64,000 bases of DNA from assembly GCA_964522435.1 (NCBI GenBank), contig CAZFUL010000001.1:11612-75611 (forward strand). Reading direction: 5' to 3'. This DNA comes from an uncultured Gammaproteobacteria bacterium (GTDB taxonomy: Bacteria > Patescibacteriota > Patescibacteriia > Magasanikbacterales > UBA922). Under the pieces are notes generated by a model. The model was not told the DNA's origin. It did no database searches and worked only from the letters and a program-made list of their open reading frames with translations. Below are positions 18,445 through 27,886 of the stretch, piece after piece (position 1 is the first letter of the stretch; the number at the start of each line of letters is the position of its first letter). A program made the translations under genes and the position numbers.

Positions 18445-20544
18445 ATGAACCTGACCACCCCCATTACACAACTATCTGGTGTTGGCATAACCATGCAAAA
18501 ACGTTTGGCAATGTTAGGTATTCATACCGTAGAAGAGTTGTTATATTATTTTCCCTTTCGCTACGAAGATGTGCGACATGTTGCCTGTATTGACCAGCTG
18601 GTGACGGGGACGCAAGTGCGTATAGAAGCGCAAATTGAGGCTATTGCAAGTCGTCGGGCACGCAAACGCCGTACCTACATTACAGAAGCCGTCGTGTCTG
18701 ATAGTTCTGGGCAATTGCGTGTGGTATGGTTTGGTCAACCGTATATAAGCAAAACCCTAAAAGTAGGGGATAGTGTGGTGCTTTCTGGGGTGGTGAAAGA
18801 AGACATGATTGGTTTGCAGCTGGTATCACCCAGTTATGAAAAAATACGGGCGCAGAAAGAAGAACAGACACTAGCGTCCGGAGAAATTTTTCCTATCTAT
18901 TCTCTTACTGCTGGCATGACCCAAAAGCAGCTGAGAAGCTATGTCAAAGAAGCATTACCGGCAGTTGTTGATATTGAAGAATGGCTTCCAGAAGAGATAC
19001 GAGATCGGGCAGATATTATGCCCTTGGTTGAGGCACTACAGGCAATTCATGTCCCAACGAGCTTGGAAGAACTCCATCATGCTGAGCGTCGATTAAAATT
19101 TGATGAAATATATATATTACAATTACGCGCGGAATTATTGCGTCAATCATTAGCGAGTGTGACGGCCAAGCAAATTATTTTTAAAGAAAAAGAAATAAAA
19201 GACATGGTAGCTGCATTACCATTTACCTTAACCAAAGATCAGAAGGTTGCTGCCTGGAACATATTTACTGATATGCAAGCGGCTCGTCCAATGAACCGGT
19301 TGTTAGAAGGGGACGTTGGTTCTGGAAAAACAGTGGTAGCAGCACTGTGTGCCTATAATACGATATTGAATGGCTATCAGGTCGCCTGCATGGCGCCAAC
19401 AGATATTTTGGCACGGCAGCATTTTCGCACCTTTCAATCCTTATTGCCAGGAGTGTCGATTGCCTTAGTCACGGGGGCGGGGGTTGAATTGTCTGCTCCA
19501 ACAACGAGTGATGTTGCGCTTGCCTTTGATAAGATAAAAACTAAAAAAGGAAAAAAAGACCGTATACGAACCTGGCTGCAAAGCGGAGAGATTTCTTTGG
19601 TTATTGGAACGCATGCATTACTCACAGAAACCGTGCAGTTTCATGAATTGGCTTTTGTTATTGTGGATGAGCAACATCGTTTTGGGGTAGAACAGCGAAA
19701 ACTGTTGAGAGAAAAATCTGGGAGTACGGCTATGCCACATTTTTTAAGTATGACCGCAACCCCGATTCCCAGATCCTTTGCCCTAACTTTGTATGGTGAT
19801 TTGGATGTGTCCTTTATTAAAGAAAAGCCACAAGGGAGAAAAGAGATTTATACGAAATTTGTGCAAGCCCATGAACGGCAAAAAGCCTATGATTTCATTC
19901 GTGGCCAAATAGATACAGGAAAACAGGTGTTTGTGGTCTGTCCTATGATTCACGTAGCTACGGACGGAGCAGAAAAAAAATCTGTTATGGCAGAGTACGA
20001 AAAACTGTCAACAAAGGTATTTGCTGATAAACGTATTGCGGTGTTGCACGGCAAAATGAAAGCAGAAGAAAAAAAAGAAATCATGCGCGCGTTTAAGGAA
20101 AAAGAACTTGATATTCTGGTATCTACCTCTGTTATTGAGGTTGGTATTGATATTCCAAACGCGAGTGTCATGATGATAGAAGGCGCTGAATCGTTTGGTT
20201 TGGCACAGCTGCATCAATTTCGAGGCCGTGTGGGGCGAAGCGATGCGCAAAGTTATTGTTTTGTCTTAACAGAGAGTGACAGCGATAGCGTGAAAAAACG
20301 ATTAGCGTTTTTTGAACAATGTCATGATGGCTTTGCCTTAGCGGAATTTGATTTAGAAGAACGTGGGCCAGGAGAAGTGTATGGCGTAAACCAAAGTGGC
20401 ATGATGCAGTTTCGACTGGCGTCTATGAAGGATAGAGAGCTTATTGTATTAGCCAGAGAGTTAGCCAAAGATATTGATTTTACGACATATCCCTTACTCA
20501 AAGAAAAGGTACACGAGTGGGAGCAGCGGGTGCATTTGGAATAA
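18445..20544 (+). CDS. recG: ATP-dependent DNA helicase RecG
   Basis: Wedge/OB N-terminus. Helicase motifs 'GDVGSGKTVVA', 'VIVDEQHRFGV', 'QLHQFRGRVGR'. Confidence 0.9.
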   Translation: MNLTTPITQLSGVGITMQKRLAMLGIHTVEELLYYFPFRYEDVRHVACIDQLVTGTQVRIEAQIEAIASRRARKRRTYITEAVVSDSSGQLRVVWFGQPYISKTLKVGDSVVLSGVVKEDMIGLQLVSPSYEKIRAQKEEQTLASGEIFPIYSLTAGMTQKQLRSYVKEALPAVVDIEEWLPEEIRDRADIMPLVEALQAIHVPTSLEELHHAERRLKFDEIYILQLRAELLRQSLASVTAKQIIFKEKEIKDMVAALPFTLTKDQKVAAWNIFTDMQAARPMNRLLEGDVGSGKTVVAALCAYNTILNGYQVACMAPTDILARQHFRTFQSLLPGVSIALVTGAGVELSAPTTSDVALAFDKIKTKKGKKDRIRTWLQSGEISLVIGTHALLTETVQFHELAFVIVDEQHRFGVEQRKLLREKSGSTAMPHFLSMTATPIPRSFALTLYGDLDVSFIKEKPQGRKEIYTKFVQAHERQKAYDFIRGQIDTGKQVFVVCPMIHVATDGAEKKSVMAEYEKLSTKVFADKRIAVLHGKMKAEEKKEIMRAFKEKELDILVSTSVIEVGIDIPNASVMMIEGAESFGLAQLHQFRGRVGRSDAQSYCFVLTESDSDSVKKRLAFFEQCHDGFALAEFDLEERGPGEVYGVNQSGMMQFRLASMKDRELIVLARELAKDIDFTTYPLLKEKVHEWEQRVHLE

Positions 20545-20654
20545 ATAAGAAGATTTTATTTTTACCTATCCCTGCTCAGCATACAAGCACGAAAGCAACT
20601 CGCTTCGGGTGCCAAGATGCACCCTGCGCTGCGACTGCTTTCTTTGCTTGTAGC

Positions 20655-20688
20655 TTTTAGGGGGATAGTATTAATTTTATCCCCCCAG
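20655..20688 (+). terminator. recG intrinsic terminator
   Basis: 'agggggatagtattaattttatccccc' hairpin just after the recG stop. Confidence 0.5.
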
Positions 20689-20693
20689 CCTGA

Positions 20694-20722
20694 TTGACAA
20701 AATAGCCAAAATCGGCTAGGGT
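20694..20722 (+). promoter_or_regulatory. sigma70-like promoter (TTGACA-N17-TAGGGT) with an internal palindrome
   Basis: 'ttgaca aaatagccaaaatcggc tagggt'. The spacer contains the inverted repeat tagcc-aaaat-cggcta. The promoter lies about 90 nt upstream of the island's first ORF. Confidence 0.4.
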
Positions 20723-20812
20723 CACTCGAATCGCTTTTTTTAAAGAAGGCGATTTGGTGGTCTTTCACAACGGAATTTTATATGCCCTTAGGTAGGGCGA
20801 AAGGGGATGATC

Positions 20813-22576
20813 ATGAAAGATTGGAATTGGAAAAAGTTGTCTTTTGTTGGGTCGCTCGTCATCATCGGCCTCACGGCCGTGGCTGGGCTGAGCCTGTTTT
20901 GGCACAACCTGCTCTGGAGCACGGTGTTTCCCGTGCCCTGGGCTGCCTGGATGGCGTCGGCCTTGATCGCCTTTGCGTCGCTCACCTTGCTGTCCTTCGG
21001 TGTTACCGGGACGCCTTTCCTTTTTTTGGCAGAGAAGATCTGCCTGCTGCCTTACAGCAAGGAGCAGACGTCCGAGCGGACCAAAGAGATTGAGCAGATC
21101 GCCGCCATTTTTGCATTCGCATTTTTGGCAGCCTTTTCGCTCAGCATCATTGGGACCAGCAAGTTCTGGTCATACCTGTTTCCAAAGCCATGGCACTGGA
21201 TTCCAGCGGTCGCAACCGCTGGGTTGGTGATTGCGCTTGAAATCATGGTTTTTCGCTCGGTGAAGGCGGGAATGAAGAAACGGATTGCCACCATCGTGAT
21301 GATGGCGTCGTTTCTGACGTTCTGTTTCGCGATCGAGATTATGGACAAGGACATCCTGCGTGAGAAAAAAATCATGCTGGATGAACAAGTTGCTCAAGCG
21401 CAGCATGATCAAGACCGGCGTGTTGCCCAGGCGAAAGAACTGAAAGAAGGAGAAATTCTTCGGCAGTTTGACGCCAAAGTGGCTGAAGCGCAGCAAAGCG
21501 CTGATGCTGCGGGCACACGGGCGCAAGCGGCAAATGCGAATCGGATTGCTGTGGTGACGCAGCAGTTTGAAGCGCAGATCGCGGCCGCAACATTGCACAT
21601 GAACTGTGCTCGGCAGCGGCTGTCGAACTGTTTGCCCGGATCACTCATGAAGCCGGGCAGCACTGAACGCGAAATCGCCGCAGCAGTGCGGCATCGCGAC
21701 GCCGCGGTGAAGCGCTTGGAAGTAGCTCGCAATACCGCGCTCATGAACGCTGGCGTTGCCGCCGGCGGGTCTGAAGGCGAGTCGCCTGCTCTGGCGCAAG
21801 CCCGGCAGGATCGAGACCAAGCCTTGGCCGCGTTGAACGGCCTGAGCAAAGAAGCGTTGCTCTCCGGGAGTGGCAACGTCCCCCTTCGCTTTGACGCGAC
21901 GGACTTTGACGGATTTCAGTCGACCATGAAGGCCTTTGGACGAGTTCTTTGGAACTCCCCGGCGACCTGGCCATGGTTTTTGCTGATGTTCTGCTTTGTC
22001 CTGTCCCTCGAGGCGATTCCTATCATTATGTTGTCCTTGCGCTCCTCTGCCTACCTTCGCTACTTGCTTTCGCAAGAGCCCAGCCTGGATCAGCTCGTGG
22101 CGCATGCCATGAACCTCAAGGTTGCGCAAGTAGACCTTGAGGAGCAGATCCCTGCTTCCGTGTTCAAAGCCGCGATGATGGGCGCGCTGTTTGCCAAACA
22201 GATCGCACAGATCGAGGCCTACCGTGAGCAGCTGGGCCAGGTCTTTGGCATGATCAAGCAAGGAGAGTTCAAGACTTTGCTTGATGTGACTCTGTTTCTC
22301 ATGCCAAGCTATAGCCTGGTAAAAGGTGCTCTCTGCGATATGCAGGTAGGGGGATACACATTCCCCAAGATCTTTTATCTGGATGCGGACATGTTTGATG
22401 GGTACAAGCCGCTTATTGAAGATTGCCTCGTCGATGCAGAAGCGGAGCGTGAGCGAGAAAAGCTCGCGGCTGCCAATCGTCCTGCTGGAGCAAACGGTCA
22501 TGTCCTCCGATCTGCCGGAGGCTTCGATGCCTCTGGTGCTGATGCGGTGAGCCTTTCTGCCGCCCCCGCCACCTGA
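20813..22576 (+). CDS. novel multi-pass membrane protein with a long coiled coil (GC-rich island gene 1)
   Basis: 587-589 aa. The start is the ATG at 20807 or at 20813; 20813 sits 5 nt after an 'aagggga' SD. Five N-terminal hydrophobic helices, a ~150-aa Ala/Gln/Glu-rich heptad-like segment, a sixth helix 'WPWFLLMFCFVLSLEAIPIIMLSL', and a ~180-aa C-terminal soluble region. No known catalytic motif. Confidence 0.6.
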   Translation: MKDWNWKKLSFVGSLVIIGLTAVAGLSLFWHNLLWSTVFPVPWAAWMASALIAFASLTLLSFGVTGTPFLFLAEKICLLPYSKEQTSERTKEIEQIAAIFAFAFLAAFSLSIIGTSKFWSYLFPKPWHWIPAVATAGLVIALEIMVFRSVKAGMKKRIATIVMMASFLTFCFAIEIMDKDILREKKIMLDEQVAQAQHDQDRRVAQAKELKEGEILRQFDAKVAEAQQSADAAGTRAQAANANRIAVVTQQFEAQIAAATLHMNCARQRLSNCLPGSLMKPGSTEREIAAAVRHRDAAVKRLEVARNTALMNAGVAAGGSEGESPALAQARQDRDQALAALNGLSKEALLSGSGNVPLRFDATDFDGFQSTMKAFGRVLWNSPATWPWFLLMFCFVLSLEAIPIIMLSLRSSAYLRYLLSQEPSLDQLVAHAMNLKVAQVDLEEQIPASVFKAAMMGALFAKQIAQIEAYREQLGQVFGMIKQGEFKTLLDVTLFLMPSYSLVKGALCDMQVGGYTFPKIFYLDADMFDGYKPLIEDCLVDAEAEREREKLAAANRPAGANGHVLRSAGGFDASGADAVSLSAAPAT

Positions 22577-22596
22577 AACACCATCCCACCGATTTA

Positions 22597-22670
22597 CGGA
22601 ACACGAACTGCCTTGGGCAACCAGTTCGTGTTCCTTCCCACCCCCTCACATAGGAGGTTTTTTTATTTTA
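22597..22670 (+). terminator. intrinsic terminator(s) after island gene 1
   Basis: 13-bp stem ggaacacgaactg/cagttcgtgttcc, then 'cctcacataggagg' followed by a T-run. Confidence 0.5.
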
Positions 22671-22831
22671 TGCGCATAATATAGGTATTGAGTAACTATT
22701 CTGTCCACCTATCCTACTTGATTTTTTTCATACAATATGTACTATCCTCCTTAACCGCTTGTGTAGAGAAACACAGATCCTCGTACGTTGCTGGCGGCTG
22801 CAAAGATACAGGAGACAAAGGAGCAAAGGCC

Positions 22832-23113
22832 ATGATTGATAAATCACTTGAACAGGTAGAGATCCTTATTTCTGCCATCGAGGCCGTGGGCCTCTCGGTT
22901 GAAAAGATCCTGCGCCGAGGGCAGGTGCATGGTTTTGTCCTGGATAATCAGCCCCCGCAGGGCTACCGCTATGATGAGCTGCTCACCTCCCGGGCACGGG
23001 AGTTGCGTGATGCCAAGAATCTGGGAGACTTCATCACTCGGATGGAGCATCTTCTGGGAACGAGCTACAATGCGGTTTTGAACCGCAATCTCTACATCGT
23101 GGCGTATCGGTAG
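22832..23113 (+). CDS. small paralog A (GYRYD-motif family, island gene 2)
   Basis: 93 aa from the ATG at 22832, preceded by 'aggagcaaagg'. The track ORF begins at 22688 but its N-terminus lies in AT-rich non-coding-looking DNA. Confidence 0.5.
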   Translation: MIDKSLEQVEILISAIEAVGLSVEKILRRGQVHGFVLDNQPPQGYRYDELLTSRARELRDAKNLGDFITRMEHLLGTSYNAVLNRNLYIVAYR

Positions 23114-23236
23114 CAAGGGGGCTTGCATTTTTTGCAAAAGTCTGTAGAATGGCTTCTAACCGCTTGAAACCAACAGAGAGGGAATTCCCAATGTATCTCG
23201 TGTGGCGGTTGCGAGATTGGGAAAAGGGAGAAATTC

Positions 23237-23527
23237 ATGAATTCGGCATACTTGGCGGCTTTGATGGCCGCGGTCAAGGCTTTGGGTAGCAACGCCCGAG
23301 CCTTCTCCGAGAACCCCGACATCGCCGGACTCAAGACCGGCACCAAGGCACCGACTGGGTATCGCTACGACCTCGCTGCTGGGGTCGCGTTCTCGAGCAG
23401 CCCGGAAGCGCAGCGTTTCTTCGACAAGATGAAGACGTTGCTCGGCTCCAGCTTCCTCCCCGTGGTGAAGCGCGAGATTTTCATCACCGAGATCGTCTTC
23501 AAGAAAGAAGAGGCCGCTTCCGCCTAG
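23237..23527 (+). CDS. small paralog B (GYRYD-motif family, island gene 3)
   Basis: 96 aa with SD 'aagggag'. The 'PTGYRYDL...KMKTLLGSSF' core aligns with paralogs A and C. Confidence 0.5.
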   Translation: MNSAYLAALMAAVKALGSNARAFSENPDIAGLKTGTKAPTGYRYDLAAGVAFSSSPEAQRFFDKMKTLLGSSFLPVVKREIFITEIVFKKEEAASA

Positions 23528-23751
23528 GCCTTCGGCGCCACGGGCAAGCAACCCCTCTTGTGCGAAGAGGAACAACCAACCAGGTCAACAGTGAGGAGCT
23601 GTTGACACCCACCAACAAAAAGACTCACCTACGCCCTTCGGGCTTCGGTGAGGAAGCGAGGGAAGCTGTTGGTCGCACCAGTGCACGCATCCGCGTTGCC
23701 TGCCAACAGATTCCATTCCAAGGGATAGTAGACATACTGTATCTTGGAATA

Positions 23752-23790
23752 TAAAAAACCTTGCACCAGAACGGTGCAGGGTTTTTTATT
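23752..23790 (+). terminator. intrinsic terminator after paralog B
   Basis: 'aaaaaaccttgcaccagaacggtgcagggtttttt'. Confidence 0.6.
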
Positions 23791-23913
23791 GCGCTTGATT
23801 TTTTTTTCTAACTTGTTTAGTATGAGCTACAACCGTTCTACCAAAGGAGTACCACGTTGCTATTGATGACTTGAACGGGCGTCACAATGGCAGTACGCTC
23901 TGAGGAGAGAAAA

Positions 23914-24210
23914 ATGTCAGGCGATCTCATCGATCAAATTGCGCGCCTCATTGCCGCGCTCGAGGCTTTTCAGCTGACTCCGGATCAGGTGATCCGTCAA
24001 ACGGACATCACCGGGTTCGAGGTCGGGGAGCGGGTGCCAGCGGGCTATTACTGGAATGCGATTCGGCATCGTGCCCAGGCGCAGGAGTTGAAGGACGCGC
24101 AAGGGGTACCCGCGTTCCAGATTCGGATGGAAGACCTCTTGAAGCACGACTACCAGTCTGTGGTTGAGGGGAAGCTCTTCATCAAGGCCGTCATTCGCCT
24201 GCGTGGGTGA
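23914..24210 (+). CDS. small paralog C (GYRYD-motif family, island gene 4)
   Basis: 98 aa from the ATG at 23914, which has the strong SD 'gaggagag' 5 nt upstream. The track start at 23887 is probably too far upstream. Core 'PAGYYWNAI...RMEDLLKHDY'. Confidence 0.5.
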   Translation: MSGDLIDQIARLIAALEAFQLTPDQVIRQTDITGFEVGERVPAGYYWNAIRHRAQAQELKDAQGVPAFQIRMEDLLKHDYQSVVEGKLFIKAVIRLRG

Positions 24211-24329
24211 CACATCCAACAAACAAGACCTGCCTGCTGGCAGGGAAGTGAGGGAAACTGTTGCTTGAAGGAGGTAAGCAACAGATCCCATTCAAGAATA
24301 GAGTATGTGAAAATAGTCTGTTGTTGAAT

Positions 24330-24365
24330 AAAAAAAATCCCGACTCAGTCGAGGATTTTTTTGTT
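24330..24365 (+). terminator. intrinsic terminator after paralog C; right edge of the island
   Basis: 'aaaaaaaatcccgactcagtcgaggattttttt'. Confidence 0.55.
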
Positions 24366-24469
24366 TATGAAGGGATGCCGGCAGCGTCAGTCAACAAATA
24401 GTTGACCTCGGCTGCCAGACATCATGCCCACATCATCGTGTCAGTTTTTTCCTCCGGTTGGTGCCACTT

Positions 24470-25813
24470 TTAACCGGTATGTTTAATTAACTCAGCAATA
24501 TTTTTTACCTGAAGGACGGTTGCTTTTGTTTTGGTCTTGGTAGCATTGCGTACTGTGGTAATGACTCGTTGTATGCCTAAGGCTTCGCATTCTTTTATGC
24601 GTTTTTCCAAAAAGCGTACGGAACGAATTTCTCCACCCAACCCTACTTCGCCAAATACCGCCAGGTCATTGCCTAACACTTTATCTTTATATGCGCTCGC
24701 AATGGCTAAACAGACTGCCAAATCAACACTGGGTTCTTGGGCTTTAATACCACCAACAATATTGACGTGCACGTCATATTGCCCCAACGTTAATCCCGCT
24801 CGTTTTTCTAATACGGCAATTAACACGTGTAGGCGGTTTAAATCAAAGCCACTGGCTTTACGCACGGGATAACCAAAGCTGGTTTTATTTACTAAGGCTT
24901 GTACTTCTACCAACAAGGGGCGAGAACCTTCCATCAAGCAGGTAACCACTGAGCCAGGCATTGCTTCTCCTCGTTCAGAAAGAAGGAGGGCAGAAGGGTT
25001 GGCAATTTGATGCAAGCCGGCCTCGTCCATATCAAACATGCCAATTTCATCGGTTGAGCCAAAACGATTTTTTACCGAACGAAGTAAGCGGATGTTATGA
25101 TAGCGATCACCTTCTAAATATAAAACCGTATCAACCAAATGTTCTAAGGTGCGTGGTCCTGCCACAGCGCCATCTTTTGTCACATGACCAATAAGAAGAA
25201 TGGCGGTTTGTTGTTCTTTTGCTGCGCCTAATAACTTTGCTGCGCAGGCGCGAATTTGAGACACATTGCCAGGTTCTCCCATAACCTCATCAGAGAAAAT
25301 GGTTTGAATAGAATCAACAATGGCGAGCGTTGGTTGTTCTTTTTTTATGGTGGCAATAATGCGTTCAACAGAGGTTTCATTACTCAACAGTAAGGTAGAG
25401 GTTTTTTTGTGTATGCGATCAGCACGTAATTTTATCTGTCCAATAGATTCTTCTCCAGATAAGTACAATGTTTTTGGAATAGCAAGCGCCATTTGTAACG
25501 AAAGGGTGGATTTTCCAATCCCAGGTTCTCCACCTAAGAGAATAAAACTCCCCGGAACAATGCCACCACCAAGAACACGATTGAGTTCTTCAATATTGGT
25601 TGAGACGCGGTTGACACTGTTGGTATCAATATCTTGTAGGGCAGTTGTTTTTGCGGTTGGATAGGCAGCGAGATCCGTTTGTTGCTTATGCACCGCAGTG
25701 ACTTGTTCTTTTATCGTTCCCCATTTACCACAAGTTAAACAACGGCCAGACCATTTTATATACTGGGCGTCACAATGATCGCAGACAAAAAGAGTGTCTA
25801 TTTTTTTATTCAT
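24470..25813 (-). CDS. radA: DNA repair protein RadA/Sms
   Basis: N-terminal zinc finger 'CDHCDAQYIKWSGRCLTCGKWG', Walker A 'GEPGIGKSTL', KNRFG motif, Lon-like C-terminus. Confidence 0.9.
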   Translation of the reverse strand: MNKKIDTLFVCDHCDAQYIKWSGRCLTCGKWGTIKEQVTAVHKQQTDLAAYPTAKTTALQDIDTNSVNRVSTNIEELNRVLGGGIVPGSFILLGGEPGIGKSTLSLQMALAIPKTLYLSGEESIGQIKLRADRIHKKTSTLLLSNETSVERIIATIKKEQPTLAIVDSIQTIFSDEVMGEPGNVSQIRACAAKLLGAAKEQQTAILLIGHVTKDGAVAGPRTLEHLVDTVLYLEGDRYHNIRLLRSVKNRFGSTDEIGMFDMDEAGLHQIANPSALLLSERGEAMPGSVVTCLMEGSRPLLVEVQALVNKTSFGYPVRKASGFDLNRLHVLIAVLEKRAGLTLGQYDVHVNIVGGIKAQEPSVDLAVCLAIASAYKDKVLGNDLAVFGEVGLGGEIRSVRFLEKRIKECEALGIQRVITTVRNATKTKTKATVLQVKNIAELIKHTG

Positions 25814-25843: not shown

Positions 25844-27886
25844 TTAAAATGCGGCATTCGTAATGCGTTCGGCTAATAATTCTTGTGCTTGTTTATTCAA
25901 GTGGATTTTATCTGAAGAATAAAGAGTATTCAAGGCGTCTTGGTTATTGGGATCTTCAAATAGATTATATACATCAATCACAACATCTGTAGCATCTAAA
26001 GCCCCGCCACCGAGTTGTCGTATCCATGTATTTGTTTCGTCTGTTTTTTCTTGGAGCGCAGGTCTCCAACTATCGTATCCTTTCCATGGGGTCACCACGA
26101 CCGCAATAACACGCAGATCATTGGCTTTGGCTTTTTGATAAATACGGCGTAGTCCCGATTGTGCATTATTTATATCATTCACCCCAGCCCAGACAATAAT
26201 ATCCGTAAAGCCTTCTCGTTTTAAATTTTTGTTTTTTATTTGGTCATACACAAAGGCTGCACTCCTGCCGGTAAATCCTCGTTTATCAACTATGATGTTC
26301 GCACAAGAAGCGGCAATAATATCCGCATAAGAGGTATTTGATTCTGTATTAGAATCTCCGACGGCCAATATTTTTTTTCCATTTCCATTGGGACAGTCAA
26401 CGCGCGCAGATGCTAAGTTTCCTTGGCCAGGCACGCTGCCTTTTTCTAAAATACGTTTTCCTGTTTTTGCCGGACAAAGGGCGTCATCTTTTGCATTGCT
26501 TGGATAAATGGGTGTTTGGTCACCGAGCCCCATTTTTGATAAGGTTGCAATAACTTTTTGTTCACCATAGTCATGTTTTTTTAAGCCATGCTCAGTGGTA
26601 ACCCCATTATTATTGCCGCCACGAGAAACATAAAATGCTTGAACCCCATTGCGAATTGCGGGCTGGGTACAGCCTCGTCCTCGTAGCACTTCTGCCATGA
26701 CTGATGGACCGTTATTGTGTCCAACATAGAGTAAGGTCATGGCGTCTTTTACCGAAATACCGGGGCATTTTTTTTGTATACTCGATAAATTAATTTGAAT
26801 GGTTGCTGCTGCTGTTGCGGTGTTCGTTTCTGCATCTATTCTGCTCGTACAGTCAAATCCTAAGGATGCGGGAAATTTTCCATAGCCTAATCCCCCTTGG
26901 CAATACTCATAATTCATTTGGAATAATCCATGATATTGGCTTCCTGGACGACGGGCATTAACATCTAAACCACTTTCTGCCGCAGCAAAGGCTTTGAGGA
27001 CACGCCAGTCATAGCCATAACAAGCGGCATAGCCTTTAAATAAATTATCAAGATCTGTATTGGATACATCAATATTCAAGTTAAAGTCTGTCTCTTTATT
27101 AAAGAACAAGTCTTCAATATTTTTCGTATTAATATAGCGTACTTTCAAATAGCTAAAATCTACCAAGCTGGGATTAACGGTATATAAAATAGTATAGGAT
27201 CCTGCTGCTAATACTATCCCAATAAGTGCATTCCCAATCATTTTTTTCGCTTCACTAATACTGCCACTATCACCACCAGAAAGTGTCCAGCGTAAGCCTG
27301 CAACAATAATAATGATTACAGAGATAATCCCCATAATCATAATAAGATATTTGTAGATGGCAGCAATATATTCTCCAAGAAAGGGAATGTATAAAAATGT
27401 TCCATCAGGATCTTCTTGGATTTTTACATCAGAAAAAGAGACGCCTGGAATGGATATTCTCGTTACTGGTTTTCCTGTGGCATTTTGGATTTCATCTAGG
27501 TTGATGTGTGGGTCAAGTAATTGATCAGTAAGAGAGCTTTGTCTTGGGTCAATAGGGTATTTTACGCCACGAAGATTACTGACGCAATAATCTAAATCAT
27601 AGGTCGCGTAGGCACCATCTTTACAATCCCATTGTTCACCTGGTTGCTCAGTATATTCATCAGTGCAGGCATTATCATCATCACAGTCACAATAACTTTT
27701 GCCATCATTTTGGCTGCTTTCACAATCACCAGAGCGACAATCAGCATTGGCTTGGCATTCTGCCCCAATCGGTAAGTCTGCTGCAATAACTCCTGTTGTA
27801 CTAAAAAAACAGAGCGATGCGACTATGAAAAACAAAATAAAAATATGGTTTAGTGTTTTTTTCACAAGCCTAAAAGCGTTTTCCAT
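25844..27886 (-). CDS. membrane-anchored multidomain envelope enzyme: Cys-rich N-domain, two TM helices, lytic transglycosylase (SLT) domain, SGNH/GDSL hydrolase domain
   Basis: SLT motifs 'AAAESGLD' ... 'YHGLFQMNYEY'. GDSL block 'ILAVGDSNTES' and 'VWAGVNDI'. Acidic Cys-rich segment 'CQANADCRSGDCESS...CDCDDDNACTDEY'. Twin hydrophobic helices near aa 180-240. Confidence 0.6.
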   Translation of the reverse strand: MENAFRLVKKTLNHIFILFFIVASLCFFSTTGVIAADLPIGAECQANADCRSGDCESSQNDGKSYCDCDDDNACTDEYTEQPGEQWDCKDGAYATYDLDYCVSNLRGVKYPIDPRQSSLTDQLLDPHINLDEIQNATGKPVTRISIPGVSFSDVKIQEDPDGTFLYIPFLGEYIAAIYKYLIMIMGIISVIIIIVAGLRWTLSGGDSGSISEAKKMIGNALIGIVLAAGSYTILYTVNPSLVDFSYLKVRYINTKNIEDLFFNKETDFNLNIDVSNTDLDNLFKGYAACYGYDWRVLKAFAAAESGLDVNARRPGSQYHGLFQMNYEYCQGGLGYGKFPASLGFDCTSRIDAETNTATAAATIQINLSSIQKKCPGISVKDAMTLLYVGHNNGPSVMAEVLRGRGCTQPAIRNGVQAFYVSRGGNNNGVTTEHGLKKHDYGEQKVIATLSKMGLGDQTPIYPSNAKDDALCPAKTGKRILEKGSVPGQGNLASARVDCPNGNGKKILAVGDSNTESNTSYADIIAASCANIIVDKRGFTGRSAAFVYDQIKNKNLKREGFTDIIVWAGVNDINNAQSGLRRIYQKAKANDLRVIAVVVTPWKGYDSWRPALQEKTDETNTWIRQLGGGALDATDVVIDVYNLFEDPNNQDALNTLYSSDKIHLNKQAQELLAERITNAAF

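What the first reader, a model, noticed from the sequence alone, without database searches (positions are those of the whole stretch)
20807..22576. Island gene 1: 589-aa polytopic membrane protein with a long coiled coil and no recognisable enzymatic domain
The architecture, read from the translation, is five hydrophobic helices in the first ~180 aa, then a ~150-aa Ala/Gln/Glu/Arg-rich segment with heptad-like periodicity ('DEQVAQAQHDQDRRVAQAKELKEGEILRQFDAKVAEAQQ...'). A sixth hydrophobic helix follows ('WPWFLLMFCFVLSLEAIPIIMLSL'), then a ~180-aa soluble C-terminal domain. I recognise no Walker, nuclease, peptidase or sensor motif. Membrane proteins with long coiled-coil stalks act as signal-transducing or effector components in several phage-defence and envelope-stress systems. 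Here the protein is the lead gene of a foreign island, followed by three paralogous small-protein cassettes.
Basis: partly seen in the sequence, partly recalled or inferred. Interest (0 to 1): 0.7.

Follow-up and report, generated by a model that had tools for sequence, protein, structure and literature searches.

The report
Rare DUF4407-like membrane protein, foreign islet
The gene is real and encodes a six-helix membrane protein that is a very divergent, horizontally acquired relative of the uncharacterised DUF4407 family in a Candidatus Magasanikbacteria (CPR) genome, but nothing I could run shows that it is a defence protein or that it works with the three small genes next to it.

Summary
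The 589-aa ORF (20807-22576, +) is a real gene. It has six hydrophobic helices, a roughly 200-aa Ala/Gln/Arg/Glu-rich helical middle segment and a roughly 145-aa helical C-terminal domain. Its only family match is DUF4407 (PF14362): below Pfam's cut-off, but covering 277 of 297 profile positions.

An exhaustive search of 1.84 billion representative proteins found one relative, P0003 (28-32% identity, full length). P0003 passes Pfam's DUF4407 cut-off and also sits beside radA, in a second Magasanikbacteria genome.

Both genes have GC3 of about 0.6-0.66, against 0.26-0.39 for their hosts. They lie in the recG/radA convergent junction, which varies from 8 bp to 8.5 kb across about 28 related genomes.

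- **Not confirmed:** heptad periodicity is no better than in shuffled sequence.
- **Not supported:** the second locus lacks the small paralogs, there are no PADLOC hits, and hairpins separate the island genes.
- **Small paralogs:** they are real genes with a confident but unmatched fold and no relatives elsewhere.

My best guess, at low confidence, is a stand-alone envelope-acting protein of exclusion or abortive-infection type. This is a new variant of a known but uncharacterised family, of moderate interest.

The parts
20545..24469 (.). Whole variable insert between the stop codons of recG (18445-20544, +) and radA (24470-25813, -). It is a compositional islet.
   Evidence: GC is 52-56% against about 40% for the surroundings, and GC3 is 0.62-0.81 against 0.26-0.38. 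recG and radA were confirmed by Pfam. The same junction is 8 bp to 8.5 kb long in about 28 Magasanikbacteria loci. There is no tRNA, integrase or long flanking repeat.
20807..22576 (+). Gene for the 589-aa DUF4407-like polytopic membrane protein. The probable true start is the ATG at 20813.
   Evidence: ORF. DUF4407 match E=5.4e-5, 23.1 bits, residues 88-411 on profile positions 7-283 of 297. Full-length homologue P0003, E=7.7e-47. GC3 0.66. AAAGGGG at 20800-20806.
20834..21349 (+). N-terminal membrane bundle, aa 10-181, with five hydrophobic helices. TM3-TM5 fall inside the DUF4407 profile. TM1-TM2 and the conserved 'LLPYS' loop lie outside it.
   Evidence: Hydropathy. Invariant positions shared with P0003 include W45, W48, P70, L80-S84, P128-W129 and E145. 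Profile mapping.
21350..21961 (+). Ala/Gln/Arg/Glu-rich predicted helical segment between TM5 and TM6, aa 182-385. Its middle varies in length and its last ~25 aa are conserved (ALAQAR.DRDQAL.ALN, aa 328-344).
   Evidence: Composition. Helices with breaks at 229-238, 276-286, 319-326 and 345-365 in a low-confidence model. About 32-aa indel relative to P0003. No significant heptad signal. An extracytoplasmic location is my inference from Lys/Arg counts in the loops of both homologues.
21962..22048 (+). Sixth transmembrane helix, aa 386-414, with Glu402 and Pro405 conserved within the membrane.
   Evidence: Highest hydropathy peak, 2.49. E402 and P405 are invariant with P0003. The DUF4407 match ends here.
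22049..22573 (+). C-terminal soluble region. A helical domain of about 145 aa (aa 415-560) is the part best conserved with P0003. A disordered tail follows (aa 561-589).
   Evidence: The best phmmer stretch, 320-557, includes it. No Pfam match even when scanned alone. No solved-structure relative by sequence. Predicted helical, with the tail pLDDT below 50.
22598..22634 (+). Stable 13-bp stem-loop just after the stop codon of the large gene. It is a probable transcript end, although no U-tract follows.
   Evidence: Minimum free energy -26.7 kcal/mol, z = -3.85, and 0 of 200 shuffles fold as well. L002 has a comparable hairpin after its homologue (sequence).
22832..23113 (+). Small paralog 1, 93 aa.
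   Evidence: ORF with GGAG-type ribosome-binding site. NCBI and Logan call it as 93 aa. GC3 0.65. AF2 model pLDDT 82.7.
23237..23527 (+). Small paralog 2, 96 aa.
   Evidence: 24% identical to paralog 1 in the alignment. GC3 0.81. The identical gene is present in an independent Logan contig, L001.
23751..23789 (.). Strong bidirectional intrinsic terminator between paralogs 2 and 3.
   Evidence: Inverted repeat I3, 17-nt arms, 94% complementary. -26.5 kcal/mol, z = -6.26. Terminator scan. The weak Rfam Thr_leader hit is this hairpin.
23914..24210 (+). Small paralog 3, 98 aa. An alternative start lies at 23887.
   Evidence: GAGGAGAG ribosome-binding site before 23914. NCBI calls it as 98 aa, P0004. 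GC3 0.73.

Best explanation
**Shown.** This is a horizontally acquired accessory gene in a Candidatus Magasanikbacteria (CPR/Patescibacteria) chromosome. It encodes a very divergent member of the uncharacterised DUF4407 (PF14362) membrane-protein family. The DUF4407 core (three TM helices, a long helical segment, one TM helix) is extended by two extra N-terminal TM helices and by a conserved helical C-terminal domain of about 145 aa with no known relatives. It sits in a variable spot between the convergent core genes recG and radA. Its only detectable relative occupies the same spot in a second Magasanikbacteria genome.

**Inferred.** Lys/Arg counts in the loops of both homologues favour a topology with the N-terminus inside. 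That places the 160-200-aa helical segment, which must fold back as a hairpin because both ends are in the membrane, outside the cell, and the C-terminal domain in the cytoplasm. Glutamates conserved inside TM4 and TM6 suggest that charge or ions are handled within the bilayer.

**Most likely mechanism (low confidence).** I think it acts alone at the cell envelope as a conflict protein of the superinfection-exclusion or abortive-infection type. It would be a membrane-embedded oligomer that either blocks entry of foreign DNA or, when triggered through its cytoplasmic domain, leaks ions and collapses membrane potential. The three small paralogs are most likely independent cargo of the same islet rather than obligate partners.
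For: **Family and architecture**
- DUF4407 match over profile positions 7-283 of 297.
- P0003 is homologous over its full length and scores 38.7 bits against Pfam's cut-off of 31.3.
- Six hydrophobic helices.
- E145, E402 and P405 are invariant between the two homologues.

**Foreign origin and accessory status**
- GC3 is 0.66 against 0.26-0.38 in the window, and 0.60 against 0.37-0.39 in L002.
- The junction varies from 8 bp to 8.5 kb in about 28 relatives with conserved flanks. Its contents are unrelated between genomes.

**Fast divergence or exchange**
- The two homologues are 28-32% identical while the adjacent RadA proteins are 69% identical.

**Stand-alone action**
- A stem-loop follows the gene in both loci.
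- L002 lacks the small paralogs.
- No other gene is shared by the two islands.

**No enzymatic alternative**
-.
Against: - There is no positive evidence for defence or exclusion. PADLOC gives no hits. The protein is absent from phage, plasmid and viral-contig collections.
- The same junction in relatives holds metabolic, regulatory or unknown genes, not recognisable defence genes.
- DUF4407 has no experimentally known function in the searchable literature.
- The topology rests on the positive-inside rule applied by hand, not on a trained predictor.
- The structural model is poor, pLDDT 46.5.
- 'Conserved' residues rest on only two sequences.
Confidence: 0.3

Rival explanations
1. It is the membrane component of a four-gene conflict system. 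The three diversified small cytosolic paralogs would act as sensors, regulators or antidotes that bind its cytoplasmic C-terminal domain.
For: - The four genes share the same foreign composition and strand and make up the whole islet.
- The paralogs are real, diversified (24-32% identity) and fold confidently.
- All four are orphans or near-orphans.
Against: - The only other homologue locus has no such paralog in 5.9 kb.
- Stable hairpins or terminators separate the genes.
- Profile-profile comparison shows no relation between the paralogs and the large protein.
- No PADLOC hits.
- The small family was not found in the 5.8-billion-protein database, in viral contigs or in about 1 Mb of related loci.
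Confidence: 0.15
2. It is an envelope or cell-surface structural protein. A membrane-anchored helical hairpin would project through the wall of this monoderm episymbiont to tether a surface layer, pilus apparatus or host cell. Its rapid divergence would then reflect surface variation, not defence.
For: - The predicted extracytoplasmic location of the 160-200-aa helical segment (my inference).
- The exposed middle part varies in length and sequence while the membrane-proximal part is conserved.
- Conserved neighbours include envelope proteins: LytR-CpsA-Psr, and a protein with a weak T4SS-pilin-like match plus a GDSL domain.
- The junction is not a recognisable defence hot spot.
Against: - The gene is absent from nearly all related genomes, so it is not part of the conserved envelope machinery.
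- No adhesin, wall-binding or S-layer domain.
- The best-conserved part is the cytoplasmic C-terminal domain, which points to an intracellular interaction.
Confidence: 0.2
3. It is leftover cargo of a mobile element, such as a prophage remnant (holin- or spanin-like lysis protein, or tape-measure fragment) or a conjugative element's entry-exclusion gene, with no current role for the host.
For: - Foreign GC3.
- It lies in an insertion-prone junction.
- Weak PHROG hits for P0003 to lysis and virion proteins, E about 0.14.
Against: - No integrase, transposase, att-like repeats or any phage or plasmid gene in either island.
- No match in phage, plasmid or viral-contig collections.
- Both homologues are intact along their full length at about 30% identity, which argues for continued selection.
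- The PHROG hits are not significant.
Confidence: 0.12

Closest known systems
DUF4407 (Pfam PF14362), an uncharacterised bacterial membrane-protein family
   Same: Residues 88-411 align to profile positions 7-283 of 297. This covers three TM helices, a long helical segment and a final TM helix. The sister protein P0003 passes Pfam's own cut-off.
   Different: - The window protein itself scores 23.1 bits, below the 31.3-bit cut-off.
- It has two extra N-terminal TM helices plus a conserved 'LLPYS' loop, and a conserved C-terminal domain of about 145 aa outside the profile.
- The subfamily has only two members among 1.84 billion representative proteins.
- It is found in a CPR bacterium.
- The family has no known function.
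Membrane effectors of abortive-infection and defence systems, such as RexB, Hailong HalA and Zorya ZorA. This is an analogy from general knowledge; HalA is as described in PMC13434031.
   Same: Polytopic membrane protein with no enzymatic domain, a long helical extension and a soluble cytoplasmic domain that could gate it. It is encoded in horizontally acquired DNA.
   Different: - No sequence relation to any solved structure, and HalA and ZorA structures should be in the PDB copy searched.
- No MotA/ExbB or other channel domain in Pfam.
- No PADLOC hit.
- No partner enzyme such as HalB's nucleotidyltransferase or ZorB-D is encoded nearby.
YueB, EsaA and PIP-type proteins of monoderm bacteria: several TM helices anchoring a long extracellular helical stalk. 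This is an analogy recalled from general knowledge and was not tested.
   Same: TM helices on both sides of a long, predicted extracytoplasmic helical segment in a monoderm envelope.
   Different: - Those proteins are much larger, and their ectodomain sits between one N-terminal and five C-terminal TM helices.
- No YhgE/Pip or EsaA Pfam match here.
- The outside location here is only inferred.

Membership tests
DUF4407 (PF14362) | Score at or above Pfam's gathering threshold (31.3 bits) | tested here: not met
   The window protein scores 23.1 bits, E=5.4e-5. Its only homologue, P0003, scores 38.7 bits and passes. Membership therefore rests on transitivity: window to P0003 at E=7.7e-47, full length.
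DUF4407 (PF14362) | Match spans the profile rather than a fragment of low-complexity helix | tested here: met
   Profile positions 7-283 of 297 align to residues 88-411 as one stretch.
DUF4407 (PF14362) | Architecture of a TM cluster, a long helical segment and a final TM helix | tested here: met
   Hydrophobic helices at 94-120, 130-153, 158-181 and 386-414 flank a predicted helical segment.
DUF4407 (PF14362) | The single invariant arginine mentioned in Pfam's description (recalled from memory) | not testable with these tools
   The Pfam alignment is not available here. Arginines conserved between the two homologues in the signature stretch are R333 and R336.
Canonical coiled coil | Heptad (3.5-residue) hydrophobic periodicity above chance | tested here: not met
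   Power at 3.4-3.7 residues over aa 182-385 is reached by 279 of 500 shuffles. Occupancy of a/d positions in each helix is reached by 171-470 of 1000 shuffles. P0003 behaves the same. No trained coiled-coil predictor was available.
Known or candidate anti-phage defence systems (PADLOC-DB 2.0) | A match of any island protein to a defence-system model | tested here: not met
   No families at E<=1 for the large protein, the three paralogs, P0003 or its neighbours.
Defence island or hot spot | The same chromosomal spot carries recognisable defence genes in related genomes | tested here: not met
   Pfam on the gap ORFs of relatives gives Nudix, peptidase M19, nitroreductase, ThiF, hydrolase and His kinase. 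An IMPDH-like ORF in L007 and L054 was identified by reading its translation. No PADLOC hits for ten gap ORFs.
Conserved gene pair or system with the small 'GYRYD' paralogs | The small paralogs recur next to homologues of the large gene | tested here: not met
   The one other locus, L002, has none by tblastn or by HMM on six-frame translations. Caveat: n=1, and the contig ends 440 bp upstream of the gene.
Hailong HalA, Zorya ZorA and other solved membrane effectors | Detectable sequence relation to a solved structure | tested here: not met
   The profile of the two homologues against all PDB chains gave nothing below E=0.58. A fold comparison was not attempted because the model has pLDDT 46.5.

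The most novel reading that the evidence does not exclude
The islet could be a previously unrecognised conflict module specific to CPR bacteria. It would combine a DUF4407-type membrane effector, with an outward helical hairpin and a cytoplasmic gating domain, and a diversifying array of small proteins with no matched fold that tune or antagonise it. The module would move by recombination into the recG/radA junction from a high-GC gene pool that is almost unsampled. If so, it would give the first functional handle on the DUF4407 family.
Probability: 0.12. Interest if true: 0.65.

Novelty: new variant of a known kind. Interest (0 to 1): 0.4.

Why it matters
DUF4407 is a widespread bacterial membrane family with no known function. 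This very rare branch adds a new cytoplasmic domain and sits in an insertion-prone junction of a roughly 1-Mb episymbiont genome, where accessory genes are few and presumably useful. If it proves to be an exclusion or abortive-infection protein, it would assign a role to DUF4407 and add a defence type for CPR bacteria, whose immunity is poorly known.

The persistent foreign codon composition at the same site in two distantly related genomes also raises a question about how CPR genomes exchange DNA. As it stands, this is a well-delimited uncharacterised gene, not a demonstrated system.

Tried and rejected
**Searches for relatives**
- Word-indexed homology searches with the protein and with the two-sequence profile found only the protein itself. 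The second search did not even return P0003, so that database appears to lack it.
- Scans of GTDB genomes, IMG/VR and JGI metagenome contigs with the profile's conserved peptides found no relatives.
- A back-translated signature motif (AQAR..RDQAL) gave four chance hits in viral contigs, which an HMM check rejected. A longer version (AQAR..RDQAL.ALN) gave none in metagenome contigs.
- tblastn against phage and plasmid records gave nothing, or one meaningless 22-aa hit.

**Structure**
- The afdb50 library was unavailable.

**Ideas tested and dropped**
- Hailong HalA as a relative was recalled from memory and checked. The description in PMC13434031 differs, and there is no PDB sequence match.
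- A structured RNA as the explanation for the high-GC inserts: Rfam found only tRNAs and a terminator look-alike.
- MAG assembly chimera: the same gene-next-to-radA arrangement is found in an independent assembly, L002.
- A lipoprotein-like 141-aa version of small paralog 1, starting at the TTG at 22688: the extension is AT-rich, has no ribosome-binding site, is absent from the other paralogs, and both NCBI and Logan aa.
- The source record could not be identified by exact look-up.
Full report
**What is there**

The + strand carries an uninterrupted ORF from 20807 to 22576, 589 aa. It opens a compositional islet that fills the space between the stop codons of two convergent core genes. These are recG (18445-20544, +) and radA (24470-25813, -), both confirmed by Pfam.

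The islet is 52-56% GC in a window of about 40% GC. The difference lies in codon third positions. GC3 is 0.66 for the large gene and 0.65, 0.81 and 0.73 for the three small genes, against 0.26-0.38 for eight flanking host genes.

GC3 is equally high in the first 178 codons (0.73) and in the rest (0.62). An AAAGGGG sequence sits just upstream, best spaced for the second ATG at 20813. The single homologue aligns from residue 29 to 544. The long ORF is therefore the gene, and the 411-aa call in the NCBI record, which equals residues 179-589, is truncated.

**Anatomy**

Hydropathy gives helices at about 10-36, 43-75, 94-120, 130-153 and 158-181, and a sixth at 386-414.

Residues 182-385 are 19% Ala and rich in Gln, Arg and Glu. 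A low-confidence single-sequence AF2 model (pLDDT 46.5) predicts them as helices, with breaks at 229-238, 276-286, 319-326 and 345-365.

Residues 415-560 are predicted helical, and the last 30 residues are disordered.

Fourier power of hydropathy at 3.4-3.7 residues over 182-385 is matched by 279 of 500 shuffles. Occupancy of a/d positions in each predicted helix is matched by 171-470 of 1000 shuffles. No other period is significant, and the homologue behaves the same. The segment is a helical, Ala-rich linker, and 'coiled coil' is unverified.

Because both ends of the segment are anchored in the membrane, it must fold back on itself. The Pro/Gly-rich stretch at 276-286 is the likely turn. This is my inference.

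Lys/Arg counts in short loops (sequences) run 3, 0, 4, 2, 5 along the chain, followed by 2 after TM6. The pattern is the same in the homologue. This favours a topology with the N-terminus inside, which puts the helical segment outside the cell and the C-terminal domain in the cytoplasm. That is also my inference, with no trained predictor behind it.

**Family**

Pfam gives one hit, DUF4407 (PF14362): E=5.4e-5 and 23.1 bits, below the 31.3-bit cut-off. It runs as a single stretch from residue 88 to 411 over profile positions 7-283 of 297. NCBIfam, PHROGs and PADLOC give nothing. The C-terminal domain scanned alone gives nothing either, and no solved structure is related by sequence.

An exhaustive phmmer search of 1.84 billion representative proteins found exactly one relative, P0003. 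It is 546 aa, E=7.7e-47, and 28-32% identical over the full length. P0003 passes Pfam's DUF4407 threshold at 38.7 bits.

The window protein is therefore a very divergent DUF4407 member by transitivity. It carries two additional N-terminal TM helices, a conserved 'LLPYS' loop and a new C-terminal domain. Conserved positions include E145 in TM4, E402 and P405 in TM6, and the stretch ALAQAR.DRDQAL.ALN just before TM6.

Searchable literature mentions DUF4407 only in gene lists.

**Genomic setting**

RadA relatives identify the host as Candidatus Magasanikbacteria, Patescibacteria. In about 28 species-level genomes the order lytR, a 170-aa gene, recG, then radA and the 680-aa gene on the opposite strand is conserved. 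The recG/radA gap, however, ranges from 8 bp to 8.5 kb. Its contents are mostly unrelated between genomes.

The contents include an IMPDH-like gene (identified by reading its translation), large Nudix-domain proteins, a block with peptidase M19, nitroreductase, ThiF, hydrolase and His kinase genes, small unknown ORFs, and short inserts of 54-62% GC with no convincing ORF or Rfam match. None of ten gap ORFs hits PADLOC. The junction is a general variable spot, not a recognisable defence hot spot.

There is no integrase, tRNA or long flanking repeat at the window's islet.

P0003 lies in the same place, convergent with radA, in a second Magasanikbacteria assembly (L002, GCA_964575905.1). There it also stands out in composition, with GC3 0.60 against 0.37-0.39. 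This independent assembly rules out a chimeric contig.

A RadA neighbour-joining tree puts the two genomes in one clade but not as exclusive sisters. Another clade member, L054, carries the IMPDH-like gene at the site. RadA is 69% identical between the two genomes, while the DUF4407-like proteins are about 30% identical. I cannot tell one old acquisition from repeated acquisitions. The unameliorated GC3 in both favours recent or repeated input from a donor pool that is virtually absent from public data.

**The small genes**

The three paralogs are at 22832-23113, 23237-23527 and 23914-24210. They are 24-32% identical and share P.GY(R/Y)(Y/W) and F..(R/K)M..LL motifs. They have very high GC3, and paralogs 1 and 3 have GGAG-type ribosome-binding sites of their own. 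With only three sequences they give a confident AF2 model, pLDDT 82.7 and pTM 0.75, so they are real genes.

In L002 the homologue is followed by a hairpin and then a separately promoted 67-aa gene of a different family, with a weak DUF3892-like match at E=0.049. No member of the paralog family is present there.

In the window a stable stem-loop at 22598-22634 (z = -3.85) follows the large gene. A strong bidirectional terminator at 23751-23789 (z = -6.3) separates paralogs 2 and 3. The islet therefore reads as three or four transcription units.

**Interpretation**

What is shown:
- The gene is real and intact.
- It encodes a polytopic membrane protein.
- It is a divergent DUF4407 relative with a new C-terminal domain.
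- It is foreign in composition.
- It lies in a variable junction.
- Its subfamily is extremely rare.

What is inferred:
- The topology, with the helical hairpin outside and the C-terminal domain inside.
- Any function.

The features weakly favour a stand-alone envelope-acting conflict protein of the superinfection-exclusion or abortive-infection type. Those features are accessory status, foreign origin, fast divergence relative to the flanks, absence of enzymatic domains, conserved glutamates within the membrane, and a conserved cytoplasmic domain that could receive a signal. I put this at about 0.3.

The rivals are:
- an envelope or surface scaffold of this episymbiont (0.2);
- leftover mobile-element cargo (0.12).

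None can be excluded with the tools available.

**Verdict**

The defence-system interpretation is unsupported but not refuted. This is a new variant of a known but uncharacterised family, and it is of moderate interest.

Noticed in passing
window 20545-24469; loci L006-L032, L054, L057, L058 downstream of radA: The convergent recG/radA junction is a variable spot across Candidatus Magasanikbacteria. The gap is 8 bp to 8.5 kb in about 28 genomes. Its contents are mostly unrelated: an IMPDH-like gene, Nudix-domain proteins of 807-819 aa, a six-gene metabolic and His-kinase block, and a 127-132-aa ORF conserved in L014, L016 and L017. No integrase, tRNA or repeats mark the window's junction, which suggests exchange by recombination through the conserved flanks.
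   Followed up: partly
L012 8181-8833; L029 1053-1651; L032 11236-12101; L009 11443-12094: These are short inserts of 600-870 bp at the same junction. They have 54-62% GC against 44-48% in the flanks, no convincing ORF, no Rfam match and no similarity to each other or to the window's islet. They could be decayed foreign DNA or undescribed RNAs.
   Followed up: partly
window 20807-22576 and L002 440-2080: Both members of the subfamily keep GC3 of about 0.60-0.66 in hosts with GC3 of 0.26-0.39, although the hosts' RadA proteins are only 69% identical. Neither a single ancient acquisition (no amelioration seen) nor independent acquisitions (no donor in 1.84 billion representative proteins) explains this comfortably.
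   Followed up: partly
window 20807-21340: The public NCBI gene call for this protein is 411 aa, starting at Met179, and so omits all five N-terminal transmembrane helices. Small paralog 2 (23237-23527) appears in the protein collection only from a Logan assembly, not from NCBI, so the record may not annotate it.
   Followed up: yes
window 23528-23913: A 386-bp stretch at 50% GC between small paralogs 2 and 3 has no convincing ORF and no Rfam family. It contains a very stable bidirectional terminator at 23751-23789. It could be a long 3' UTR, a small RNA or a decayed gene.
   Followed up: no
window 20694-20722 and L002 about 2190-2220: A similar promoter-like motif, TTGACA followed by 16-17 nt and then TAGGGT, lies upstream of the large gene in the window and upstream of the 67-aa gene that follows the homologue in L002. 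I read it by eye. It falls below the promoter scan's threshold because the -10 hexamer matches only 3 of 6 positions.
   Followed up: no
window 25844-27886 (-): The conserved neighbour of radA is a 680-aa protein with a Cys-rich N-terminal region, a weak match to T4SS pilin (PF18895, E=8.5e-4) and a C-terminal GDSL lipase/acylhydrolase domain. Its N-terminal part is conserved next to radA in most Magasanikbacteria loci, while the C-terminal domains differ; L002 has a different C-terminal region.
   Followed up: no
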